A DNA stretch of 64,000 nucleotides from Escherichia coli O127:H6 str. E2348/69 (GTDB taxonomy: Bacteria > Pseudomonadota > Gammaproteobacteria > Enterobacterales > Enterobacteriaceae), in NCBI RefSeq assembly GCF_000026545.1, contig NC_011601.1. One strand, written 5' to 3'. Made by a program: the position numbers and the translations under genes. The stretch's first letter is position 1, and every line of letters starts with the position of its first letter. The notes under the pieces are model-generated. The model was given only the letters and a program-made list of their open reading frames with translations, was not told the origin of the DNA and did not search any database. This document shows, piece by piece, positions 19,469 to 31,980 of the stretch.

Positions 19469-19492
19469 TGGTCATCAAATGACCAGTTTTTT
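19464..19492. terminator. hairpin with flanking A/T runs shared by ompW (+) and int (-) 3' ends
   Basis: aaaa-ctggtca-tcaaa-tgaccag-tttttt; overlaps the last codons of int. Confidence 0.6.
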
Positions 19493-20605
19493 CCATTCCT
19501 TACCGCGTGCGTCGTTGTAAATATCGGTCATTTTTTGATTCGAATGGCCTAGCAAAATTTTGGTATCAACCCCCTGCTCTCTGAACAATCGCTCTGATAA
19601 AGATCTCTGCTCATGGAAAGAGGGAGGGGTGCCATTAGCACGCCAGTTGTAATCCACAGAATCCCGGGCTTTTTTAAATGCAACGGTTAATGTTGCTGGC
19701 TTAACCATCCCGCCGCGCTTAGCTGTCCCTTTCGCGTGATGGTGGTGCAATAGCCACGGACTAAGAACGCAATCGCGGCAGGATGACACCACATCATCCA
19801 GGGTGAGATTTAATTTATCGCAACGCAGAGCCAGAGGGATGGCAATCCGGGTTCCTGTTTTTTGCTGTTCGACATGAAGATAACCATCCCGGATATCCGA
19901 AAATTGCATTTTGCAAATATCTGAAAGGCGCTGGCCTGTCATCAGTGCCAGCAGCATACCTCGCTGTAAAAAGTAACCATCCTTTTCCGCTGCGTTATAA
20001 ATCATCATCCACTCATCAAAAGTCAGTCGCTGTCTTGATATCCGCACCTGCGGTTTTTTTGCCGATTCTGCAGGGTTAAAGCCTGGCGGGACATCGCCCG
20101 TTTGCTGAGCTTCCCGGAAAACATCGATCAGTACTTTCCTGAAAATTTGTCCCATTCTGTTATGTCCTCTGGCCTTGTACTCTTCCAGTACTGATACCAC
20201 ATCTTTTACGGTTATGGCATCTAACGGTCTGGTGCCAAAACGTTCATCAAATACCCTGAGAGGGGCCGCTTTCTGTTTCAGCGTGTTGAGTTTGATCTCG
20301 CCGTTTTTATATCTTTCCTGTTGAATTTTTCTGTAATTATTCAGAAAAATGGTAACGGTTGATGAACCGCCGGTATCACTAATAATTTTCTCCTGCAGAC
20401 TGAGCATTTGTTCCATTTGCTGCCGGGCAAGACGGCTGTTCGCTTCTGCTGCAATAGTTTCTGCCAGTTTCTGGTCAATACTGCCGAGACCGTGATTTTT
20501 GCCTGTTATGGGATGCCTGTAACGCCAGTAAACTTTGTTATTTCTTTTGTCAAAATACGGAGATAATCCCGGAACATCGGTTTTATATTTTCGCGGGCGC
20601 GCCAT
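19475..20605 (-). CDS. int: phage integrase, lambda-Int-like tyrosine recombinase
   Basis: 376 aa; C-terminus ...LLGHSNQKMTDIYNDARGKEWKKLVI resembles the lambda Int catalytic C-terminus. Confidence 0.92.
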   Translation of the reverse strand: MARPRKYKTDVPGLSPYFDKRNNKVYWRYRHPITGKNHGLGSIDQKLAETIAAEANSRLARQQMEQMLSLQEKIISDTGGSSTVTIFLNNYRKIQQERYKNGEIKLNTLKQKAAPLRVFDERFGTRPLDAITVKDVVSVLEEYKARGHNRMGQIFRKVLIDVFREAQQTGDVPPGFNPAESAKKPQVRISRQRLTFDEWMMIYNAAEKDGYFLQRGMLLALMTGQRLSDICKMQFSDIRDGYLHVEQQKTGTRIAIPLALRCDKLNLTLDDVVSSCRDCVLSPWLLHHHHAKGTAKRGGMVKPATLTVAFKKARDSVDYNWRANGTPPSFHEQRSLSERLFREQGVDTKILLGHSNQKMTDIYNDARGKEWKKLVI

Positions 20606-20831
20606 CTTCCAGTATCCTCTTCAAAGCAGGGTGATCTGTGGCGATCACCTCCGGCTTGTTTACCATTCCGACAAAGCGAGCTTGCGGATCCACTCGCCAG
20701 CGTCTTCCAACTTTTTTGGGGAGAGGAAATATCATTCCGGCTTTAGCGTATTTACTTAACGTACTCGGAGTTGGGACCGGTTCACTGAATTCCTCTTTTG
20801 CCCACTCAGTGAGCAGAATAAGTCTTGCCAT
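20583..20831 (-). CDS. xis: excisionase (Xis-like)
   Basis: 82 aa, overlaps int start; LTEWAK...IFPLPKKVGRRWRV resembles lambda Xis. Confidence 0.7.
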   Translation of the reverse strand: MARLILLTEWAKEEFSEPVPTPSTLSKYAKAGMIFPLPKKVGRRWRVDPQARFVGMVNKPEVIATDHPALKRILEDGAPAKI

Positions 20832-20895: not shown

Positions 20896-23367
20896 TTAAA
20901 AATCAGCCTGATTCGGGATCAGTTTTTGCCAGATAACTGAAACGTATTTTGCCTGGTAACGGGCGTCATCAAGTGCATTATGGCGCTCACCTTCGAATGG
21001 AATAGCCGTTCTGGCATCGAAGTCTATGGCTTTCCCCAGCTCAACGATTGTGCGTACATCGCGATCGTTGTAGTAACGCCACGGGCAGGGGATCCCCTGC
21101 CGTTCGTATGAACGGCGCAAAATCGTGTTGTCGAAGTTGGCTCCATTTCCCCAGACCTGAACAAAAAATTCACCGGAGTTTTCGTCGATAAATTCCCGCA
21201 ATTGTAACAGTGCATCATCTAACGGGATTTCATCGGTCATAATGGCAGATTGCGCTTCGCGTGATTGCTTAAGCCACCATTTAATGGTGTCCCGATCAAT
21301 GACCCCGCCAGCAGTTTCCAGATCGATAGTCTTACTAAATTCCGGTCCCATATCTCCGGTTTGCGGATCGAAAAATATTGCACCTATTGAGATGATCGGG
21401 GCATCAGGATTTTTTCCCATGGTTTCAAGGTCGATCATTAGATGGTCACACGTCCTGCTGGTGGATGTGATTTCTTGATGACCGTTCACCTTAATTGAGT
21501 GATCTGCCGTCTCGCCAGTTTCATTATCGCTATCGTGATGCTGATTGCCGTCAGTGTTCTCCTTGTGTGGATGTTCAGCGCCTTCCATTTCCTCCGGATC
21601 ATCTTCCTGAACTTCAACCTGATACTCTTCATCGAATGTTTCCTGGTATGTTGCGTCGCCCATCACCGCGCCACAATCAGGGCAGTTGCCGCCGCCGGTC
21701 TGACCGCAGGCGGTGCAGACTTTTTCCACTTCCTGTTGCGCCACTGGTTCAGGCTGTTTCGTTTCTGGCTCGTTTTGTAACGCATTTGGGCTGTTTTGTT
21801 CCGCTTTCTGGCCGTTCTGTTCCGTTTCTTGCTGGTTCTGATTCACTGAATCGCGGGTTTCAATCCCCTTCACCCATTTCGGATCATTCTGGTCGCTAAT
21901 CCCTGCAACAAATTCTCCGCGAGAGGCAGCAAGCAACTTATCGGCGTCAGGCTGGCTGATATTGGCTGCCTGCATAATTTTGTTTACTTCGTCAGCGGTA
22001 ACTTTTACCGGCTCTGGTTGTGCGGTCGTGTCAGATGCACCAGTATTTTGTTGTGAACCTGAGTATGTACTGTTTTTGCGGGCGAAATATTCTTCTTTCG
22101 TGATTTCAGTAGCCCCGGCAGCCAGCGCCTTATCCAGACCAGAAAGTTTGTTTGCGCGACCGTATTTTTCGCCATCCTTGTCGGTGAAGAGGAAGTAGAA
22201 CGGCCCTTCACGCTCTACAGATGGTTCGACTTCCACTTTGCATTCGGTTTTTTCGTTGTCCGGAATTGCCGTTTCCACTGCATCAGTTTCTGGTACTGGC
22301 GACGAGAGAGTATCAGTTGCGCTCTGATTTCTTCCTTCATCTTCAAACACGCCCTTTGTAGTCAGGTATTCAGTAATGTATTTGTTCAGTGCCACAGGGT
22401 CTTTGTGAATGTCGATCGGACGTTCACGGACAAGGCCAAAAATAGTCTGGCGGTCGTAGCGAAGGGCATCAGGCTGTTTGCGCATTGATGCCGAGATACG
22501 CTTCCAGTCTTCGCGGTCGTTGTCGATAACTTCATTTTTTGCCCAGCGATGGATGCTGCCGTCAATGTTTCCGGCATCCACATCACCAGGCCAGAGAGCG
22601 TAGGCCAGTTCGTCATCCAGTGTTTTCCATGTCTGCTTGTATTCGCGATGAATGGCAGCAATGACCGGGCTGATTTTTCCTGTTGAATTTTCAGTGTTCT
22701 GTTGATTGGTTCTGGCGCGGGCGAGATCAACAACAGACGTGTATTTTCCGGTTTCCTTGCGTTCACCTTCGCGACGTTTTTTCCAGATGCGCATCTCTGC
22801 CTGAATTTCGGGCCATTTGGCACCAGGCTTACATTTATGCTTAACCCACCCGATGGCATGCAGCTTAAGCTCCGGATACATGGCGTTAACTTCTGGCATT
22901 TTCATCAACGCTTCAACGATATGTCCGTCGAATGTTGCCATGTCTTCCTGCAACAATTCCTGTGCGCTAATAACCATATCAACGGTGATGTTTTCACATG
23001 TGTCGAACTTAACCATGACAGCGTTCGGTACTTCAGGGGCCAGCTTGTCAAAAGTGACGTTCATCGGATCTGATTCAGTCTCAACCGGGACAAAGGAAGC
23101 AGACTCCTCATCCCAGCGGTTTTCCTGCATATATTCAGCATCCCAGGAATCGAGGGCAGGGCGGGGTATGCCGGGTTTATCCTCACAGACAATAAATTTA
23201 TAAGCGCAGTCCTGAGCTGCAGGGAATTGCTCCAGAAATTGCCAATGAAATTTTGCGCGTGCGCGACGCTCATCACCAGCTTCAATGGCAGTGGCCACCG
23301 CAACAGCGCTATCTTCTTTTATGGCCTGTTCATCAGGAATAGCAGCGCAAATAAAGACTTTACTCAT
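20896..23367 (-). CDS. large prophage exonuclease with C-terminal DnaQ-like (DEDDh) 3'-5' exonuclease domain
   Basis: 823 aa; C-terminus has MIDLETMG ... HNALDDA motifs; central CxxC...CPDC zinc-ribbon-like cysteines; acidic low-complexity middle. Confidence 0.7.
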   Translation of the reverse strand: MSKVFICAAIPDEQAIKEDSAVAVATAIEAGDERRARAKFHWQFLEQFPAAQDCAYKFIVCEDKPGIPRPALDSWDAEYMQENRWDEESASFVPVETESDPMNVTFDKLAPEVPNAVMVKFDTCENITVDMVISAQELLQEDMATFDGHIVEALMKMPEVNAMYPELKLHAIGWVKHKCKPGAKWPEIQAEMRIWKKRREGERKETGKYTSVVDLARARTNQQNTENSTGKISPVIAAIHREYKQTWKTLDDELAYALWPGDVDAGNIDGSIHRWAKNEVIDNDREDWKRISASMRKQPDALRYDRQTIFGLVRERPIDIHKDPVALNKYITEYLTTKGVFEDEGRNQSATDTLSSPVPETDAVETAIPDNEKTECKVEVEPSVEREGPFYFLFTDKDGEKYGRANKLSGLDKALAAGATEITKEEYFARKNSTYSGSQQNTGASDTTAQPEPVKVTADEVNKIMQAANISQPDADKLLAASRGEFVAGISDQNDPKWVKGIETRDSVNQNQQETEQNGQKAEQNSPNALQNEPETKQPEPVAQQEVEKVCTACGQTGGGNCPDCGAVMGDATYQETFDEEYQVEVQEDDPEEMEGAEHPHKENTDGNQHHDSDNETGETADHSIKVNGHQEITSTSRTCDHLMIDLETMGKNPDAPIISIGAIFFDPQTGDMGPEFSKTIDLETAGGVIDRDTIKWWLKQSREAQSAIMTDEIPLDDALLQLREFIDENSGEFFVQVWGNGANFDNTILRRSYERQGIPCPWRYYNDRDVRTIVELGKAIDFDARTAIPFEGERHNALDDARYQAKYVSVIWQKLIPNQADF

Positions 23368-23459: not shown

Positions 23460-23705
23460 TTAAAGACCTGCCGGGATTTCGTTATTATCCTGGTGAATAA
23501 CTTTATCGACCGGGTAACAGTTACCGGGAATTTTCTGTTCGGTTGCTGCAGTCACACACTCCTGCATTGTCCTGTGAACACTGACTGCAATATCAACTGG
23601 CTCTCCGGAAACAAGAAAAACTGTCAGAACAAGTGCAAATGCTGTATTCATTGCCAGCATCCTTTTTGTATCGGACGTAAACGGGCCAGCATTGAAAGAA
23701 TGCAT
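23460..23705 (-). CDS. hypothetical small secreted/membrane protein (early-left region)
   Basis: 81-aa ORF with a hydrophobic signal-like segment MLAMNTAFALVLTVFLVSG; same strand as the exonuclease; start uncertain. Confidence 0.3.
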   Translation of the reverse strand: MHSFNAGPFTSDTKRMLAMNTAFALVLTVFLVSGEPVDIAVSVHRTMQECVTAATEQKIPGNCYPVDKVIHQDNNEIPAGL

Positions 23706-24394
23706 ATTTTATTTAATAGCTCCCGTTCGTGTTTTCTCTTGTTAATGGCATCTTCAGTAAATACAGGGTTACTGATAGTGACACCAATTTCAAAACAACC
23801 TTCAGACGTATTAACGTTTGGTAATAACGTTTCCATTATCGCGTCCTCAACAATGAATTTTGTGATGTGGTGCCTGGTGCCTCCAGGTGACGTTAACCAG
23901 TTAACAATTAACGCCGGATACAGAGAATCCACCCATAACACTGTTTTTGGTTTTAACTGTTCCGCGTGCGCTCAGCCGCATTCACCGCATCACAAAATTC
24001 ACTTTAAAAACGGCGGCAGAGCAGTCACGGAGTAAAACTGATACCGCCAAACGTCACCAGAAAATTGATAACAGAGGGCGTTGCAGCGGGGTTGTCGCTT
24101 AAGCGTATGGTCAACCTGACAACCCGGTGTCCTCAACGGGGAAGGAATAACCCCGCCATACTTACCGCCGCGCCATTTCGCGGAGTGCCACAACCGGAAG
24201 CGCACGGTCGAACTAAATTTAACGACACCGTACAGAGAGACCAATTTTGCCGTGCGCTTTCGCGTTATGCCCTGACTTTTCAGGGACATATCCTTTCAGT
24301 AAACTGTCAGTGCCGGATGTTCACCCGTGTCCGGCGCACGCACTCCACCTGACCCGTGGAGAACTCCTTAATTACCAACCCTCAGGAGGGTGAA

Positions 24395-24673
24395 ATGGAT
24401 AAAAAGCAAATTGAGGCCCTGCAATCTATTATTGAAAAACAAGATGAAGCTATCAGGATTCTTTCATATCGCACTGATATGATACTAAATATGCTTTCTG
24501 CATTAACGGCTGCGCTTGGTGGTACAAAAACAAACGTATACCGCGAAGTTGTTATTCAACAGATAGATAAATTTGAAAAAACCATACCAGGTATTAATGC
24601 TCATCTTGCAGAACAAGAGAAAGACCATGCTCTTATGGCAATTTCTTCAGTAGCTCTCCCGAAAGTTGAGTAG
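24395..24673 (+). CDS. hypothetical coiled-coil protein, opposite strand within the early-left region
   Basis: Track ORF 24356..24673; ATG 24395 preceded by AGGAGG (24383-24388); product MDKKQIEALQSIIEKQDEAIRIL... Confidence 0.45.
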   Translation: MDKKQIEALQSIIEKQDEAIRILSYRTDMILNMLSALTAALGGTKTNVYREVVIQQIDKFEKTIPGINAHLAEQEKDHALMAISSVALPKVE

Positions 24674-25046
24674 TTTTAATTGTTGTTTTGAAATAATCAC
24701 TGCTTTCACATTTGAGTGATTTCATGGCAATCCAAATGCGGGCCTCTGTGCCTGCATTTGGTTCCAGTTGCTGTAGACGTTTTGCGTCTTCCAAAAGTAA
24801 GGCGATAATGTGTTTCAGCTTCTCATCATTTGCTTGATTCTTGTTTTCAGGCGAATTCTGTCCGCCGAATAGGCGCTTCTCTTCATACAGACCTATAAAG
24901 GCACGACGCACGTTACCGGATATAGTATCGATGGTTTCTTTTTCTACGGTACTCAGGTCAAGAGTCGCCAGTTGAGAGCGAACCACATTCGATGCCATTT
25001 CCTGGAATGGTACTGGTAAATCTTTAAATTCCATCGTCAACCTCAT
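24633..25046 (-). CDS. hypothetical early-left protein
   Basis: 137-aa ORF directly downstream of the next ORF on the repressor side; no recognisable motif. Confidence 0.4.
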   Translation of the reverse strand: MRLTMEFKDLPVPFQEMASNVVRSQLATLDLSTVEKETIDTISGNVRRAFIGLYEEKRLFGGQNSPENKNQANDEKLKHIIALLLEDAKRLQQLEPNAGTEARIWIAMKSLKCESSDYFKTTIKTTQLSGELLKKLP

Positions 25047-25279: not shown

Positions 25280-25385
25280 GTTCTTACGCCTCGGGCTGGC
25301 TACTTAACCCCTGACCACTGCCTGGTAACTCGAAGTATTGCCCTGCATTCTGTGGGGCGGGGTGGGTTGGTATGAAAAGAAGGAT

Positions 25386-25420
25386 ACCCATAGGTATTTA
25401 AAAAGTAAATACCTATGGGT
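25386..25420. promoter_or_regulatory. 35-bp near-perfect palindrome (acccataggtattta-aaaag-taaatacctatgggt) downstream of the repressor gene; terminator or operator
   Basis: 15-bp arms are exact reverse complements; followed by aaattttt. Confidence 0.5.
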
Positions 25421-25463
25421 AAATTTTTGCGGTGTCTTAACTGGTGACTAGTTGTTTGGTGAG

Positions 25464-28797: not shown

Positions 28798-29331
28798 GTG
28801 GAGATAATAATGGGAATAACTAAAGAACGATTGTTGGAAATAGCAAACCTTAGTGATTGGGCATTAAGTGATGAGAGAATTGTTTCTCCTCATGCTTATG
28901 AGTCAGTTACAAGTATAGAAATAACAACAATGGCTAGAATGCTGCTTGGTTATTTCAAAATAGAAAATAAAAAACAGATGGATAGTAATGTTGATATATG
29001 TGAGATTTTAGACGATTGGGGGGCTTGGGTTGTGGCTGGTAATAGTTCTATTGATTGGCAGGAAATAGCTGATAAATATAAAAATGTTGTTCCTCATGGT
29101 AAAAAATCACGTCGTCAGTGCAGCAATGATGAAGGGCGAATTATTGACATTAGTATCCTTAGGTTAGAAAGATATAAGCAACAAGAATATGAGTTAATTG
29201 TTGCTCATTTCGTGATTGGTTTATCTCTTCGTGCTATTGCAAAGCAACAAGGATGTTCAGATGGAACAATTCGTAAAAGATTGCAAAAAGCCTTAGGTTT
29301 TTTGACTGGATATATAGCAATTACCAGTTAA
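28798..29331 (+). CDS. regulatory protein with sigma-70 region-4-like HTH C-terminus
   Basis: 177 aa; C-terminus ...LSLRAIAKQQGCSDGTIRKRLQKALGFL resembles sigma region 4.2 / antiterminator-type HTH. Confidence 0.5.
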   Translation: MEIIMGITKERLLEIANLSDWALSDERIVSPHAYESVTSIEITTMARMLLGYFKIENKKQMDSNVDICEILDDWGAWVVAGNSSIDWQEIADKYKNVVPHGKKSRRQCSNDEGRIIDISILRLERYKQQEYELIVAHFVIGLSLRAIAKQQGCSDGTIRKRLQKALGFLTGYIAITS

Positions 29332-29969
29332 GAGTCAGCGGTTTTTTTACCAGTGTAATGGTATAAGGATACTCCCATGTGTCTTACATGATATGGAAGC
29401 GCTGTTGCTGGATGCTTTGTGATACTCTTAAAGCGGAGGGGAGAGCCTTCCGCTTCAATTTCTGCGTCCGAAACGGTCGTAGAGAAAAATTCTTTCCATT
29501 CATTGAATTTTACTGCTGATTTGTCAGACTTTATATAAATTAGAATTCCTCCATGATCGTCACGTGACGTACCCGTGCCGTAACGTTCGGTTAGCTGAAT
29601 CCAGCCATTATGAATAGATTTGGGGCCTCTCCATAATTTTGCTTCACCGATCCATTCGAATTTTCCGAATTGATGTTTAACTAATAAATCAACGTGACCG
29701 CCATGTTGAGTATCATGTTCAACATCATAAAACCTACCTTTCAGGAAATTTTTGATCGACGCTGTTAGCTCGTCCTCTCCCCACTTAGCATCTTGATAGA
29801 AGTGTTTGTCATTTTCTAAATTCTGAATAGCGTCGTCTAAATCTTCATAGAGTTGCTTTACAAAAATATTTTTGTCTGCAGCTAATTTTCTTTGAACCAT
29901 TCCCCTAAATTCAGGATCCATTCTAATTAATGATTGAAGGTCTGCAGTACAGATGTTTACATCACTCAT
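29328..29969 (-). CDS. cassette gene C: putative Mrr-like PD-(D/E)xK nuclease (213 aa)
   Basis: Start placed at ATG 29969 (MSDVNICT..., GGAG upstream) rather than track start 30032; motif HGGHVDLLVKHQFGKFEWIGEAKLW resembles the Mrr-cat GxGxhD ... (Q/E)xK signature; 8-nt overlap with gene B. Confidence 0.55.
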   Translation of the reverse strand: MSDVNICTADLQSLIRMDPEFRGMVQRKLAADKNIFVKQLYEDLDDAIQNLENDKHFYQDAKWGEDELTASIKNFLKGRFYDVEHDTQHGGHVDLLVKHQFGKFEWIGEAKLWRGPKSIHNGWIQLTERYGTGTSRDDHGGILIYIKSDKSAVKFNEWKEFFSTTVSDAEIEAEGSPLRFKSITKHPATALPYHVRHMGVSLYHYTGKKTADS

Positions 29970-30390
29970 GCAGACTCTCCAAAAGACTCGAAGGAGTAAA
30001 GTATGGATAAAGATACTGGCTAAAATTATCAACCAATTCGCCAGTTTCTGGATGGTAAAAACTTCCTGTGTCTAAAGCATAGGAAATAAGATCATCTTCA
30101 ACTGGTATTGGTTCTTCCGTTAAATTATCAATGTATTGAAAATGCATATCCAATAGATGTGCTTTATAGCTAGATAAATAATCAGTTGCTTTTATTAGCA
30201 GGATATAGCCATCTTTCGTATCAGTTAGATAGGTTAAACCATTGATAAGGGTTTTGTATGTAAAGTGATTGATATTTTTAGCATCTTTACTAACCAGAAA
30301 AAGAAAAAGATCACGACACACACTGCGAACAGGATCATTAAAATCCTGCTCTATTTGCGTGATAATGTCGTGATATATACTCTTTTTCAT
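29962..30390 (-). CDS. cassette gene B: hypothetical protein (142 aa), no recognisable domain
   Basis: ATG overlaps stop of gene A (ATGA); AT-rich codon usage distinct from neighbours. Confidence 0.55.
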   Translation of the reverse strand: MKKSIYHDIITQIEQDFNDPVRSVCRDLFLFLVSKDAKNINHFTYKTLINGLTYLTDTKDGYILLIKATDYLSSYKAHLLDMHFQYIDNLTEEPIPVEDDLISYALDTGSFYHPETGELVDNFSQYLYPYFTPSSLLESLHE

Positions 30391-31484
30391 TTATGGCCTG
30401 ATGATCTCGCTCTTCTTTTCTCTTCACAGGACTTAACAGAATCCAATATTTTTTCAACAATAAATATAATCGAATCAATGTTGTTACAGTTCTTCGCAAT
30501 TGCTTCATGCAACCTAATTCTAGGATTATCAAGCATTGTCCTTTTTCCTGGTAATATTAACTCTACTGATAAAATATGTGAAGAACTTTGTGGTAAATCC
30601 CAAATTTTTCCCAACTTAAACTTTGTCAATATTGGGCTTGCGGACTCTCCACTATGATGGTAAACATCTTGACGCAAACACTTTTGACTTGGTTTGAGTT
30701 TTAAAGAACTTGTATTGCCATCTGAGGTGATAAAAGATACATGAGAAATTCTGCCATCTACTTTTTCGTAAAGATCTTGTATTGAACCAAATAATTCAAG
30801 AGGATTGTTTAAAATAACGCCAGCTTCTTTTTTTATAAATTTAGCCACAAGGTATTGTTGAGGCTGTGATTCACTTCTTGGAAGGATAGATAAATCAATC
30901 GTAAGAATTAATATTTTTTCTGCAGGCATTAGCATGATGGTATTAAAGCATTGCGTGACTTGGCGTGTTTTGCATTTTATTTCTCCACCATTAGCACGTA
31001 ATTCCATACCCGCATCGCTAAGATGTGTTGGGTCAAGCTCTATCACTTCAGTGTAATACGCTTTGGATAAAAAAACAGCAGTGTCAATTTGTTTATCACG
31101 AATGATATCTTGACGTAGTTCAGCAAAATGCAGCTCAGTATCAGCAACTAACAGCTCCTCTCTGGATAAAGGAATTGGGTATTTTTCTGAGAAGGGGCTA
31201 TTGTCCTTTTTCTGATTTGTGAAAATTGTTTGTAATTTTGCTACGTCTTCATCGGTGATTCTATAAATAGAAAGTAATCGATTCCCGCTAAAAATTAAAC
31301 CTTTCCAGAAATCGTCGATTCTGTCTTTTAGGTCGGGATTATGCTGAACTACACTATTTACACGTTCAATAAAAAGGGGTAATCCTTGGGCCGTTACACC
31401 CAGTGATGAACCAAGAAGCTTACGGGTGTTGCGCCAGCCAAAGCGTGAATTGATGTTTTTTACTGTTTGCTCAAGCATTAACAC
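30387..31484 (-). CDS. cassette gene A: hypothetical protein (365 aa), no recognisable domain
   Basis: First gene of a three-gene minus-strand operon; no Walker or other nucleotide-binding motif seen. Confidence 0.6.
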   Translation of the reverse strand: MLMLEQTVKNINSRFGWRNTRKLLGSSLGVTAQGLPLFIERVNSVVQHNPDLKDRIDDFWKGLIFSGNRLLSIYRITDEDVAKLQTIFTNQKKDNSPFSEKYPIPLSREELLVADTELHFAELRQDIIRDKQIDTAVFLSKAYYTEVIELDPTHLSDAGMELRANGGEIKCKTRQVTQCFNTIMLMPAEKILILTIDLSILPRSESQPQQYLVAKFIKKEAGVILNNPLELFGSIQDLYEKVDGRISHVSFITSDGNTSSLKLKPSQKCLRQDVYHHSGESASPILTKFKLGKIWDLPQSSSHILSVELILPGKRTMLDNPRIRLHEAIAKNCNNIDSIIFIVEKILDSVKSCEEKRRARSSGHK

Positions 31485-31767
31485 TTCCTTAATTTTCCCT
31501 TAACAATTTAGGGTGCTAAACTTTTTTGCGCAGTTTACATAAAAAAATAGTGCGTACGCAAAAACTATCTAACATGATGAGCTTTAACCGGGAAATTTGT
31601 ATATGTTGTGAGCATAAAGTTGGCTGAGAAATCTAAAACGGGTAGAATGACTGCGGGTGCTTGAGGCTATCTGTCTCAGGCATGAACACCAAAAGGCAGA
31701 TAGAGAAAAGCCCCAGTTAACATTACGCGTCCGGCAAGACGCTTAACATTAATCTGAGGCCATATCT

Positions 31768-31980
31768 ATGCTCTACACACGTAGGTTAGCCTCTTACGTG
31801 CCGAAAGGCAAGGAGAAGCAGGCTATGAAGCAGCAAAAGGCGATGTTAATCGCCCTGATCGTCATCTGTTTAACCGTCATAATGACGGCACTGGTAACGA
31901 GGAAAGACCTCTGCGAGGTACGAATCCGAACCGGCCAGACGGAGGTCGCTGTCTTCACAGCTTACGAACCTGAGGAGTAA
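31768..31980 (+). CDS. mok: Mok-like overlapping reading frame of a hok-family type I toxin locus
   Basis: 70-aa frame whose C-terminal 51 codons are hok; arrangement as in hok/sok loci. Confidence 0.45.
   Translation: MLYTRRLASYVPKGKEKQAMKQQKAMLIALIVICLTVIMTALVTRKDLCEVRIRTGQTEVAVFTAYEPEE
31825..31980 (+). CDS. hok: Hok-family type I toxin (HokD/RelF-like, 51 aa)
   Basis: MKQQKAMLIALIVICLTVIMTALVTRKDLCEVRIRTGQTEVAVFTAYEPEE; AGGAG at 31811-31815. Confidence 0.85.
   Translation: MKQQKAMLIALIVICLTVIMTALVTRKDLCEVRIRTGQTEVAVFTAYEPEE

What the first reader, a model, noticed from the sequence alone, without database searches (positions are those of the whole stretch)
20896..23367. 823-aa multidomain exonuclease in the recombination slot
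A DEDDh-type 3'-5' exonuclease domain sits at the C-terminus, preceded by a long acidic low-complexity region and a Cys4 zinc-ribbon-like motif. No RecT/Bet-like partner ORF is evident nearby.
Basis: partly seen in the sequence, partly recalled or inferred. Interest (0 to 1): 0.3.

Follow-up and report, generated by a model that had tools for sequence, protein, structure and literature searches.

The report
Prophage RecE-like protein with 3'-5' exonuclease
This is the intact form of the E. coli prophage gene ydfE: the non-catalytic front part of the recombination nuclease RecE carrying a 3'-5' (DEDDh) exonuclease instead of RecE's 5'-3' nuclease and lacking a RecT partner; it is very common, already catalogued and biochemically untested.

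Summary
Window 20896-23367 (-) is an intact 823-aa ORF. It has a complete DEDDh 3'-5' exonuclease domain at residues 641-823, a CxxC-x7-CxxC motif at C551/554/562/565, an acidic disordered linker at 571-640, and no annealing-protein partner.

The window is E. coli E2348/69, in the lambdoid prophage at ompW. The gene is the last one before xis-int in a dicF-dicB-ydfD operon, and it is the undisrupted version of the K-12 Qin pseudogene ydfE.

Residues 262-625 are homologous to the function-unknown N-terminal region of Rac RecE. Homology stops just before the crystallised RecE nuclease core, so this is a nuclease head swap on a shared scaffold.

Relatives show every combination of two N-termini with two heads, plus forms with no Pfam nuclease. 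The PD-(D/E)XK heads come with RecT: 76 of 76 evaluable loci, plus 3 of 4 diverse loci. The DEDDh heads never do: 0 of 80 loci, plus 0 of 8 diverse loci.

The nearest characterised relatives are DNA exonucleases: T4 DexA and the anti-T4 protein EcD.

Most likely it trims the 3' ends of DNA without an annealase, in a phage that keeps Chi sites and relies on host RecBCD/RecA. That mechanism is inferred, not shown.

The gene is present in about 65% of complete E. coli genomes and is listed in Pfam, PHROGs and a 2025 paper. Interest is low to moderate.

The parts
20896..23367 (-). Whole ORF: 823 aa, the intact ydfE-type exonuclease
   Evidence: PHROG 2082 matches full length.
22753..23367 (-). Residues 1-205: N-terminal alpha/beta domain (Pfam YdfE_N, PF27430)
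22333..22635 (-). Residues 245-345: all-helical domain (Pfam YdfE_C, PF27432), weakly homologous to RecE 278-360
   Evidence: AF2 pLDDT 93-98. Aligns to RecE. Shared across relatives as the 'mid' segment.
22063..22215 (-). Residues 385-435: small beta-beta-alpha domain, absent from K-12 RecE
   Evidence: AF2 pLDDT 95-97 in the 1-450 model, but not reproduced in the full-length model. dN/dS is 0.09. Falls in a gap in the RecE alignment.
21868..21996 (-). Residues 458-500: motif shared with RecE (DKLLAASRGEFVxGISDxNDPKWVKGIxTRD)
   Evidence: About 85% identical to RecE 455-485. Found across both scaffold families. Consensus LAAxxGxxVxGxSDPxDPKW. dN/dS is 0.13.
21724..21867 (-). Residues 501-548: Q/N/E-rich disordered linker
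   Evidence: Composition. pLDDT 30-39.
21658..21723 (-). Residues 549-570: Cys4 motif, CTACGQTGGGNCPDCG, shared with RecE
   Evidence: C551/554/562/565. Conserved in 66-67 of 67 homologues, with dN/dS 0.10. RecE carries CNACGQTGGDNCPDCG. AF2 confidence is low, so the fold is not established.
21448..21657 (-). Residues 571-640: acidic disordered linker. RecE homology ends at about residue 625
   Evidence: 13 D/E and 0 K/R in residues 571-600. pLDDT 31-43. dN/dS is 0.84. The alignment with RecE ends at 625/591.
20899..21447 (-). Residues 641-823: DEDDh 3'-5' exonuclease domain (PF16473). Catalytic residues D646, E648, D746, H796, D801
   Evidence: dN/dS is 0.18.
20583..20831 (-). Excisionase, immediately downstream, in the position where recT would be in Rac
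19475..20605 (-). Integrase. The prophage end abuts ompW
23460..23651 (-). ydfD-like DUF1482 gene, immediately upstream in the same operon
   Evidence: Same order in Tritos, vB_EcoS-640R1 and Qin.
23648..23836 (-). dicB cell-division inhibitor, in the same operon
24011..24062 (-). DicF sRNA, in the same operon
   Evidence: Rfam RF00039, 72.5 bits, E=1e-14.
21457..21464 (+). Chi site (GCTGGTGG) on the late-gene strand, inside the gene. It is one of 6 top-strand and 2 bottom-strand sites in the prophage part of the window

Best explanation
Identity (high confidence). This is the intact ydfE-type early-left-operon protein of a Tritos/PPompW-like lambdoid prophage. It is a mosaic protein. Roughly 640 residues form a largely non-catalytic scaffold: three small folded domains, a conserved motif and a Cys4 knuckle, joined by disordered linkers. 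Residues 262-625 of that scaffold are homologous to the function-unknown N-terminal region of RecE. An acidic tether then connects it to a DEDDh (DnaQ/RNase T/DexA-like) 3'-5' exonuclease, in place of RecE's PD-(D/E)XK 5'-3' nuclease.

Mechanism (inferred). The protein is transcribed with dicF-dicB-ydfD from the early-left promoter after induction or infection. The scaffold brings the tethered head to DNA ends, as it presumably does for RecE. The head removes nucleotides from 3' ends of DNA.

A 3'-5' head cannot make the 3' tails that an annealase uses, and no annealase or RecBCD inhibitor was recognised in the phage. The enzyme therefore most likely works with host functions. It may trim or blunt 3' tails so that RecBCD can enter and act at the phage's Chi sites, or it may expose 5' tails for annealase-independent end joining.

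What is shown: domain identities, the homology boundaries, an intact active site, purifying selection on the folded parts, and the operon context with absence of RecT. What is inferred: DNA rather than RNA as substrate, the timing of expression, and the link to RecBCD and Chi.

The confidence of 0.5 combines about 0.95 for the identity and architecture with about 0.4 for the specific role.
For: Head identity.

The nearest characterised relatives are DNA exonucleases. T4 DexA is the only PDB hit by sequence. EcD digests T4 DNA and is 39% identical to this domain.

RecE-scaffold homology ends at RecE residue 591. A review places the RecE nuclease domain at 564-866 and calls the N-terminal part function-unknown, though it enhances linear-linear recombination.

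Head swapping: all four combinations of N-terminus and head exist among 1.84 billion representative proteins.

Strict covariation with RecT:
- DEDDh heads have no RecT in 0/80 IMG/VR loci and 0/8 diverse loci (window, Tritos, vB_EcoS-640R1, L008, L089, L090, L091, L092).
- PD-(D/E)XK heads have RecT in 76/76 evaluable loci, and also in K-12, L007 and L093.

Same slot as recE in a Rac-like prophage: kilR-ydaE-exo-xis-int.

Selection: dN/dS is 0.09-0.18 in folded domains and 0.7-2 in linkers.

Chi sites: 6 top-strand and 2 bottom-strand sites in the prophage part of the window. The upstream 8 kb of DEDDh-type prophages carries 1.83 top-strand Chi per 10 kb, against 0.39 for Rac-type.

Literature: Zheng et al. 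2025 class phage Tritos as a nuclease-only Rec module with 7-21 top-strand Chi and no anti-RecBCD. Tritos has a 93.7%-identical gene.

No promoter-like site lies directly upstream of the gene on its strand.
Against: - No biochemical or genetic data exist for this protein.
- Pfam names the domain after an exoribonuclease, and the structural neighbours include RNases, so an RNA substrate is not excluded.
- According to the review cited by Zheng et al., 3'-5' exonucleases usually inhibit homologous recombination.
- The Chi comparison uses phylogenetically non-independent loci, and the prophage's Chi density is only host-like, not enriched over the host.
- Relatives of the scaffold with no recognisable nuclease show that the scaffold has a role of its own, which may not concern DNA ends at all.
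- The gene persists in cryptic prophages in about 65% of complete genomes. That would also fit a host-beneficial function such as defence.
Confidence: 0.5

Rival explanations
1. Anti-phage or superinfection-exclusion nuclease. The prophage exonuclease degrades incoming foreign DNA, for example modified T-even DNA, as reported for the stand-alone homologue EcD (the 'HREX' strategy). The scaffold would act as a regulator or targeting part.
For: EcD protects against T4 and digests 5hmC DNA. EcD-like proteins recovered from the published primer are 39% identical to this domain. The neighbouring dicB is known, from my own knowledge of the literature, to give phage resistance when expressed. The gene is retained in most E. 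coli genomes, including cryptic prophages.
Against: The positions the authors tie to 5hmC recognition and dimer-only behaviour are not matched. W152 corresponds to Y766, D169 to K779, and D90 is kept as D718, although the alignment is uncertain around D169. No PADLOC model matches. The gene lies deep in the repressed early-left operon with no promoter-like site of its own. The same scaffold carries RecE's recombination nuclease.
Confidence: 0.15
2. Host-DNA scavenging or general DNA degradation during lytic growth, which is the other role of T4 DexA. It would supply nucleotides or remove linear host and plasmid DNA.
For: Homology to DexA, whose annotated roles include host DNA degradation. Presumed early expression from the operon position.
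Against: Lambdoid temperate phages are not known to degrade host DNA (my knowledge). An exonuclease needs ends made by an endonuclease, and none is adjacent. The elaborate RecE-type scaffold is unexplained by this role.
Confidence: 0.1
3. RNA 3'-end processing or decay enzyme, for example acting on operon transcripts such as DicF, on host RNAs, or on oligonucleotide signals.
For: The Pfam family is named for the exoribonuclease Rv2179c, and RefSeq names many homologues '3'-5' exoribonuclease'. Structural neighbours include RNase T, Orn, ERI1 and the CBASS-associated Cap18. DicF is encoded in the same operon.
Against: The only solved relative detectable by sequence is the DNA exonuclease DexA. 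Rv2179c itself was not found at E<=0.01. The same head occurs on RecE-type scaffolds in Rac-like prophages where no DicB/DUF1482 genes were called upstream of it. RNase T also acts on DNA, as the hit titles show.
Confidence: 0.07
4. Decaying remnant: a fusion left over in cryptic prophages that no longer does anything.
For: K-12 carries only an IS2-truncated copy. Four of 67 distinct close homologues have D646N or D646G at a catalytic position.
Against: The ORF is intact in 75/80 loci, dN/dS is 0.09-0.18 in folded domains, and the four other catalytic residues are invariant. The gene is present in viable phages: Tritos, mEp460, Evi and HannyBb.
Confidence: 0.03

Closest known systems
RecE (exodeoxyribonuclease VIII) of the Rac prophage, E. 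coli K-12
   Same: Same genomic slot in the early-left operon next to xis-int. Residues 262-625 are homologous to RecE 278-591 (39% overall, about 85% over the last 150 residues). That stretch includes the DKLLAASRGEF...DPKWVKG motif, the Cys4 knuckle and the acidic linker. Both have a long N-terminal region of unknown function tethered to a C-terminal nuclease.
   Different: The C-terminal head is DEDDh (3'-5') instead of PD-(D/E)XK/DUF3799 (5'-3'). The first 260 residues are YdfE_N, not PF06630. There is no RecT partner. It scores 272 bits against a cut-off of 1269 for the NCBIfam RecE equivalog.
YdfE, the pseudogene of cryptic prophage Qin in E. coli K-12 (Pfam YdfE_N/YdfE_C)
   Same: The first 257 residues are 95% identical. 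The operon order is the same: ydfA-like, dicF, dicB, ydfD, ydfE, int.
   Different: The K-12 copy is cut by IS2 after about residue 257 and lacks everything else, including the nuclease. The window copy is complete.
Exonuclease of phage Tritos and relatives (mEp460, Evi, PPompW phages): the 'nuclease-only' Rec module of Zheng et al. 2025
   Same: 91-95% nucleotide identity over the full gene, with the same neighbours. No annealase and no anti-RecBCD, with Chi sites retained.
   Different: Essentially none. The window gene is a member of this group, carried in a prophage that has IS and moron insertions.
T4 DexA (PDB 8KEL/8KEN) and E. coli EcD ('HREX'), Kang et al. 2025
   Same: Same DEDDh subfamily. 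All five catalytic residues align. EcD-like proteins are 39% identical and DexA 25% identical to residues 640-823. Both are DNA 3'-5' exonucleases encoded by phages or prophages.
   Different: They are stand-alone proteins of 189 and 227 aa with no scaffold. The positions linked to 5hmC recognition (W152, D169) correspond to Y766 and K779 here.
Rv2179c of M. tuberculosis (founder of PF16473), RNase T and DnaQ
   Same: DEDDh fold and motifs.
   Different: These are cellular single-domain enzymes. Rv2179c is an exoribonuclease and is not detectable by phmmer from this protein at E<=0.01.

Membership tests
DEDDh 3'-5' exonuclease, Rv2179c-like/DexA subfamily (PF16473) | Profile match above the curated threshold | tested here: met
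   226.6 bits against a cut-off of 27, covering profile positions 2-177 of 177.
DEDDh 3'-5' exonuclease, Rv2179c-like/DexA subfamily (PF16473) | Exo I/II/III motifs with D, E, D, D and a His five residues before the last Asp | tested here: met
   D646, E648, D746, H796 and D801 align with DexA D7, E9, D119, H186 and D191. Four of the five are invariant, and D646 is kept in 63/67 close homologues.
DEDDh 3'-5' exonuclease, Rv2179c-like/DexA subfamily (PF16473) | RNase T/DnaQ-like fold | tested here: met
   Foldseek against PDB returns RNase T, ERI1, Orn, Cap18 and REXO2 with probability 1.0 and best E=3.6e-5. The model confidence for this domain is only moderate.
DEDDh 3'-5' exonuclease, Rv2179c-like/DexA subfamily (PF16473) | 3'-5' exonuclease activity, and the substrate (DNA or RNA) | not testable with these tools
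   Needs an enzyme assay.
RecE / exodeoxyribonuclease VIII (NF007259 equivalog) | Full-length profile score above the cut-off | tested here: not met
   272 bits against 1269. Only profile positions 271-602 are matched.
RecE / exodeoxyribonuclease VIII (NF007259 equivalog) | C-terminal PD-(D/E)XK nuclease domain (PF12684/DUF3799) | tested here: not met
   Absent here but present in RecE. There are no tblastn hits to the RecE C-terminus in 80 related loci.
RecE / exodeoxyribonuclease VIII (NF007259 equivalog) | N-terminal Exonuc_VIII domain (PF06630) | tested here: not met
   Not found. It is replaced by YdfE_N.
RecE / exodeoxyribonuclease VIII (NF007259 equivalog) | Middle region with the conserved motif, Cys4 and acidic linker | tested here: met
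   BLASTP E=9e-61, query 262-625 against RecE 278-591.
Two-component phage recombinase (exonuclease plus single-strand annealing protein, e.g. RecET, Red) | Adjacent annealase gene (RecT, Bet, Erf or Sak family) | tested here: not met
   None is annotated or detected in the prophage's early-left operon. 0/80 related loci have one, against 76/76 evaluable RecE loci.
Two-component phage recombinase (exonuclease plus single-strand annealing protein, e.g. RecET, Red) | 5'-3' polarity, producing 3' tails | tested here: not met
   The head belongs to a 3'-5' family. Polarity is inferred from family membership, not assayed.
YdfE (Pfam PF27430 YdfE_N + PF27432 YdfE_C) | Matches to both families, and identity to the K-12 YdfE fragment | tested here: met
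   The precomputed Pfam hits for the 97%-identical protein P0001 list both families, with names given. The first 257 aa are 95% identical to K-12 YdfE. These models are not in the local Pfam copy, so they were not rescored here.
HREX / EcD modification-dependent anti-phage exonuclease (Kang et al. 2025) | Conserved Trp and acidic residue at DexA W152/D169, and loss of the tetramer residue D90 | tested here: not met
   The corresponding residues are Y766, K779 and D718. EcD-like proteins have W132, E145 and A78. The alignment around D169 is uncertain.
HREX / EcD modification-dependent anti-phage exonuclease (Kang et al. 2025) | Selective digestion of 5hmC DNA and protection against T4 | not testable with these tools
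   Needs assays.

The most novel reading that the evidence does not exclude
The RecE/YdfE N-terminal region is an autonomous targeting scaffold that delivers interchangeable effector heads to the same, still unknown, target. The heads are a 5'-3' PD-(D/E)XK nuclease with RecT, a 3'-5' DEDDh nuclease without RecT, a third PHROG 'exonuclease' head, or none. On this reading the DEDDh version defines an annealase-independent, opposite-polarity end-processing route. That route would couple Chi-bearing lambdoid phages to host RecBCD/RecA, or alternatively would act as a prophage defence nuclease. Working out what the scaffold binds would also explain the long-unexplained N-terminus of RecE, which boosts linear-linear recombineering.
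Probability: 0.3. Interest if true: 0.55.

Novelty: already known. Interest (0 to 1): 0.28.

Why it matters
The gene is one of the most widespread prophage genes in E. coli. About 65% of complete genomes carry a near-full-length copy, and some genomes have up to 10 matching places (full or partial). It has never been assayed.

It shares its scaffold with RecE, a workhorse of recombineering whose N-terminal 560-590 residues are functionally unexplained. Two findings make a simple hypothesis testable: the same scaffold carries nucleases of opposite polarity, and only the 5'-3' head travels with RecT. The hypothesis is that the scaffold does the targeting and the head decides whether an annealase is needed.

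It also bears on how Chi-rich lambdoid phages without Rec modules use host RecBCD. For annotation, it shows that labelling these proteins 'exodeoxyribonuclease VIII' or '3'-5' exoribonuclease' is likely misleading.

Tried and rejected
- **PADLOC defence models.** No hit for the protein.
- **Supplementary tables of Zheng et al. 2025.** These should say how Tritos's nuclease was typed, but they are not held.
- **Literature searches.** Rv2179c plus prophage returned 0 papers. ydfE returned only incidental mentions, by title and abstract.
- **Zinc-ribbon fold.** AF2 gave low confidence (pLDDT about 40-50) for residues 549-570. Only the CxxC-x7-CxxC pattern and its conservation are established. The NCBIfam zinc-ribbon hit, at E=0.023, is not significant.
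- **Is EcD this very domain?** Rejected. The EcD primers encode MIDTET..., and the matching IMG/VR proteins are stand-alone 189-aa proteins only 39% identical to this domain.
- **The 271-aa gene after one PD-(D/E)XK relative (P0249).** It is not recognisably RecT (BLASTP) and matches PHROG 3657 of unknown function. It may be a different annealase and is left unresolved.
- **An independent promoter upstream of the gene.** None was found on its strand. This consensus scan is weak evidence.
Full report
**Where the window comes from.** The 2,472-bp region is 100% identical to E. coli E2348/69 (EPEC O127:H6). RefSeq annotates the product as WP_000048378.1, '3'-5' exonuclease'. The gene lies in a lambdoid prophage integrated next to ompW.

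On the window's minus strand, running from the immunity region outward, the early-left operon contains:
- a repressor-like gene
- a DUF1391 (ydfA-like) gene
- a 133-aa protein of unknown function
- the DicF sRNA (24011-24062, Rfam 72.5 bits)
- dicB
- a ydfD-like DUF1482 gene
- the 823-aa ORF
- xis and int

The order DicF, dicB, ydfD, exonuclease, xis, int is the same in phage Tritos. vB_EcoS-640R1 and K-12 Qin show it as far as their records go: DicF is not annotated in the former, and Qin has no xis.

**Checking the observation.** The ORF is real and intact.
- Pfam places PF16473 (Rv2179c-like DEDDh exonuclease) on residues 642-813, with E=2e-67.
- The only solved structure found by sequence is T4 DexA, a 3'-5' DNA exonuclease (8KEL, E=1.5e-6).
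- A three-way alignment puts D646, E648, D746, H796 and D801 on DexA's catalytic residues.
- Foldseek on a full-length AF2 model returns RNase T, ERI1/3'hExo, Orn, Cap18 and REXO2 with probability 1.0.
- The Cys4 pattern is C551-x2-C554-x7-C562-x2-C565. Residues 571-600 contain 13 acidic and no basic residues. Residues 496-550 are Q/N/E-rich.
- AF2 predicts 313 of 823 residues below pLDDT 50, mainly these linkers.

No annealase is present. The downstream genes are xis and int. The upstream operon ORFs match only DicB, DUF1482, DUF1391 or PHROGs of unknown function. Elsewhere the prophage carries only RusA, a DUF968/HNH protein and a terminase-associated HNH.

**What the rest of the protein is.** BLASTP against K-12 RecE aligns residues 262-625 with RecE 278-591 (E=9e-61). 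Identity is weak at first and rises to about 85% over the last 150 residues. That stretch includes the motif DKLLAASRGEFVxGISDxNDPKWVKGIxTRD, the Cys4 knuckle and the acidic linker.

Homology stops at RecE residue 591. A review places the RecE nuclease domain at residues 564-866, so the break falls at its N-terminal edge, just before the crystallised core. [quoted passage not shown] RecE's own domains are PF06630 at the N-terminus and PF12684 (PD-(D/E)XK) at the C-terminus. Neither is present here.

The first 257 residues are 95% identical to the K-12 Qin pseudogene ydfE, which is cut by IS2. Precomputed Pfam tables name the two N-terminal families YdfE_N (PF27430) and YdfE_C (PF27432).

Per-region dN/dS was computed over 70 distinct gene sequences from 75 intact loci plus the window, and it matches this anatomy:

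| Region | dN/dS |
|---|---|
| N-domain (1-205) | 0.10 |
| Mini-domain (385-435) | 0.09 |
| Shared motif (458-500) | 0.13 |
| Cys4 (549-570) | 0.10 |
| DEDDh (641-823) | 0.18 |
| Linkers | 0.7-2.1 |

**Head swapping and the RecT rule.** An exhaustive HMMER search with residues 1-640 found only 248 representatives at E<=0.001 among 1.84 billion proteins. Mapping eight query segments onto the longer ones shows every combination:

| N-terminus and head | Examples |
|---|---|
| YdfE_N + DEDDh | this protein, P0121; P0122 is a hybrid with a PF06630 piece ahead of the YdfE regions |
| RecE_N + DEDDh | P0128, P0140, P0255 |
| YdfE_N + PD-(D/E)XK | P0131, P0204, P0240 |
| RecE_N + PD-(D/E)XK | RecE, P0249 |
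| YdfE_N, no Pfam nuclease | P0126, P0129 and others |

One of the last group, P0129, carries a different PHROG 'exonuclease' C-terminus.

Genomic context sorts cleanly by head type.
- The DEDDh forms are followed directly by xis and/or int in the window, Tritos, vB_EcoS-640R1, L008, L089, L090, L091 and L092. 0 of 80 IMG/VR loci contain a RecT-family gene.
- The PD-(D/E)XK forms are followed by a RecT-family gene in K-12, L007 (Pfam RecT E=2e-36) and L093. The same holds in 76 of 76 IMG/VR loci where the contig does not end inside recE.
- One PD-(D/E)XK relative, P0249, is followed by a 271-aa protein of unknown family instead.

The two IMG/VR sets consist of close relatives, so the large counts are not independent observations. 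The diverse loci carry the argument.

**Likely mechanism.** The head has a complete, conserved active site. Its nearest characterised relatives act on DNA. T4 DexA works in host-DNA breakdown and in intron-homing recombination. EcD is a 189-aa E. coli protein reported to digest hydroxymethylcytosine DNA and to protect against T4.

I recovered EcD-like genes from the published forward primer. They are stand-alone genes, and the protein is 39% identical to residues 640-823. In L108 the neighbouring ORF sizes looked like an early operon, but I did not annotate them.

[quoted passage not shown] It is therefore probably expressed only after induction or infection. A 3'-5' head cannot create the 3' tails that annealases load on, which fits the absence of RecT.

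The prophage keeps Chi sites in the orientation of the late genes: 6 top-strand against 2 bottom-strand in 44.5 kb. In the 8 kb upstream of the gene, DEDDh-type prophages have 1.83 top-strand Chi per 10 kb, against 0.39 in Rac-type.

Zheng et al. (2025) independently class Tritos as a 'nuclease-only' Rec module with no anti-RecBCD and 7-21 top-strand Chi. They note DnaQ-like 3'-5' nucleases in lambdoid Rec modules, and RecE-like proteins without a nuclease.

My best reading is that the scaffold targets a tethered 3'-end-trimming DNA exonuclease to DNA ends, in a phage that depends on host RecBCD/RecA. I put about 0.95 on the identity and architecture and about 0.4 on this specific role.

**Rivals.**
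- **Defence or exclusion nuclease of the EcD kind.** This is the most interesting rival. However, the residues the authors link to 5hmC recognition are not matched (Y766 and K779, with D718 retained), no PADLOC model hits, and the gene sits in a repressed operon.
- **Host-DNA scavenging, or an RNA substrate.** Neither can be excluded without assays.
- **Decay.** This is contradicted by the selection analysis, although 4 of 67 close variants carry D646N or D646G.

**Novelty and score.** The protein is identical to a RefSeq entry. A near-full-length copy occurs in 3,532 of 5,426 complete E. coli genomes, with up to 10 matching places per genome. It forms a 90%-identity cluster with more than 23,000 members. 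It has its own PHROG and Pfam families, and it belongs to a class described in a 2025 paper. It is therefore already known as an object, but its activity and role are untested.

The analysis here adds four things: the exact RecE homology boundary, the combinatorial head swap, the RecT covariation, and the domain-resolved selection profile. Interest is low to moderate (0.28). It is a tidy, testable handle on the unexplained RecE N-terminus rather than a surprise.

Noticed in passing
window 24011-24062 (-), with dicB 23648-23836 (-) and ydfD-like 23460-23651 (-): A complete DicF sRNA (Rfam 72.5 bits) and dicB/ydfD lie just upstream of the exonuclease. RefSeq leaves the 23836-24395 stretch without an annotated gene in this genome.
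   Followed up: partly
window 29328-31478 (-): Three co-oriented low-GC (about 0.38-0.40) genes of 197, 142 and 363 aa are inserted on the opposite strand between two Q-type antiterminator genes. They match only PHROGs of unknown function (9664, 11490, 12777) and essentially nothing in PADLOC. This is a candidate moron or defence cassette.
   Followed up: partly
window 31655-31830 (+): A sok antitoxin RNA (Rfam 117 bits) sits next to an annotated hokD toxin gene inside the prophage.
   Followed up: no
window 34730-34970 (+): ARAGORN finds three adjacent phage tRNAs: CAT (called Met, annotated Ile in RefSeq), Lys-TTT and Arg-TCT. RefSeq annotates only two, so the Lys-TTT gene at 34807-34882 is unannotated. 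An ISEc13 transposase lies just downstream, at about 35111-36484.
   Followed up: no
window 25385-25421: A perfect 16-bp inverted repeat (TACCCATAGGTATTTA...TAAATACCTATGGGTA) lies between the repressor-like gene and the DUF1391 gene. It scores as a bidirectional terminator but could be an operator.
   Followed up: no
window 24395-24673 (+) versus 24633-25034 (-): An annotated 92-aa gene on the plus strand (PHROG 18692, unknown function) converges on the 3' end of the 133-aa early-left gene and overlaps it by about 40 bp.
   Followed up: no
residue 646 (window 21430-21432) in related loci L009-L088: Among 67 distinct close homologues, the first catalytic Asp is replaced by Asn in 3 and by Gly in 1, while the other four catalytic residues are invariant. 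These may be inactivated or binding-only variants.
   Followed up: no
L096:4001-6337 (P0129) and L094:4001-6109 (P0126): Relatives of the same scaffold carry other C-termini. P0129 ends in a PHROG 7838 'exonuclease' region and is flanked by a Gam-like gene and a Sipho_Gp157 gene. P0126 ends in PHROG 26058 (unknown function) and sits in a prophage close to an ompW gene.
   Followed up: partly
L108:6401-6970 (-) and L107, L111, L114, L121, L122: Stand-alone 189-aa EcD-like DEDDh exonucleases (MIDTETLGNGPDAA...) were recovered from the published EcD primer. In L108 the gene sits near ORFs of 840, 370, 335 and 326 aa. I did not annotate these, so the type of element carrying EcD is unresolved.
   Followed up: partly
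L097:6565-7380 (+): In one RecE_N + PD-(D/E)XK relative, the gene occupying the recT position is a 271-aa protein with no RecT similarity (PHROG 3657, unknown function). It may be an unrecognised annealase.
   Followed up: partly
record NZ_CP059840.2 2687815-2689137, beyond the window's right end: The type III effector gene nleA lies just past the tail-fibre genes of this prophage, among fragments of tail-fibre genes and an integrase.
   Followed up: no
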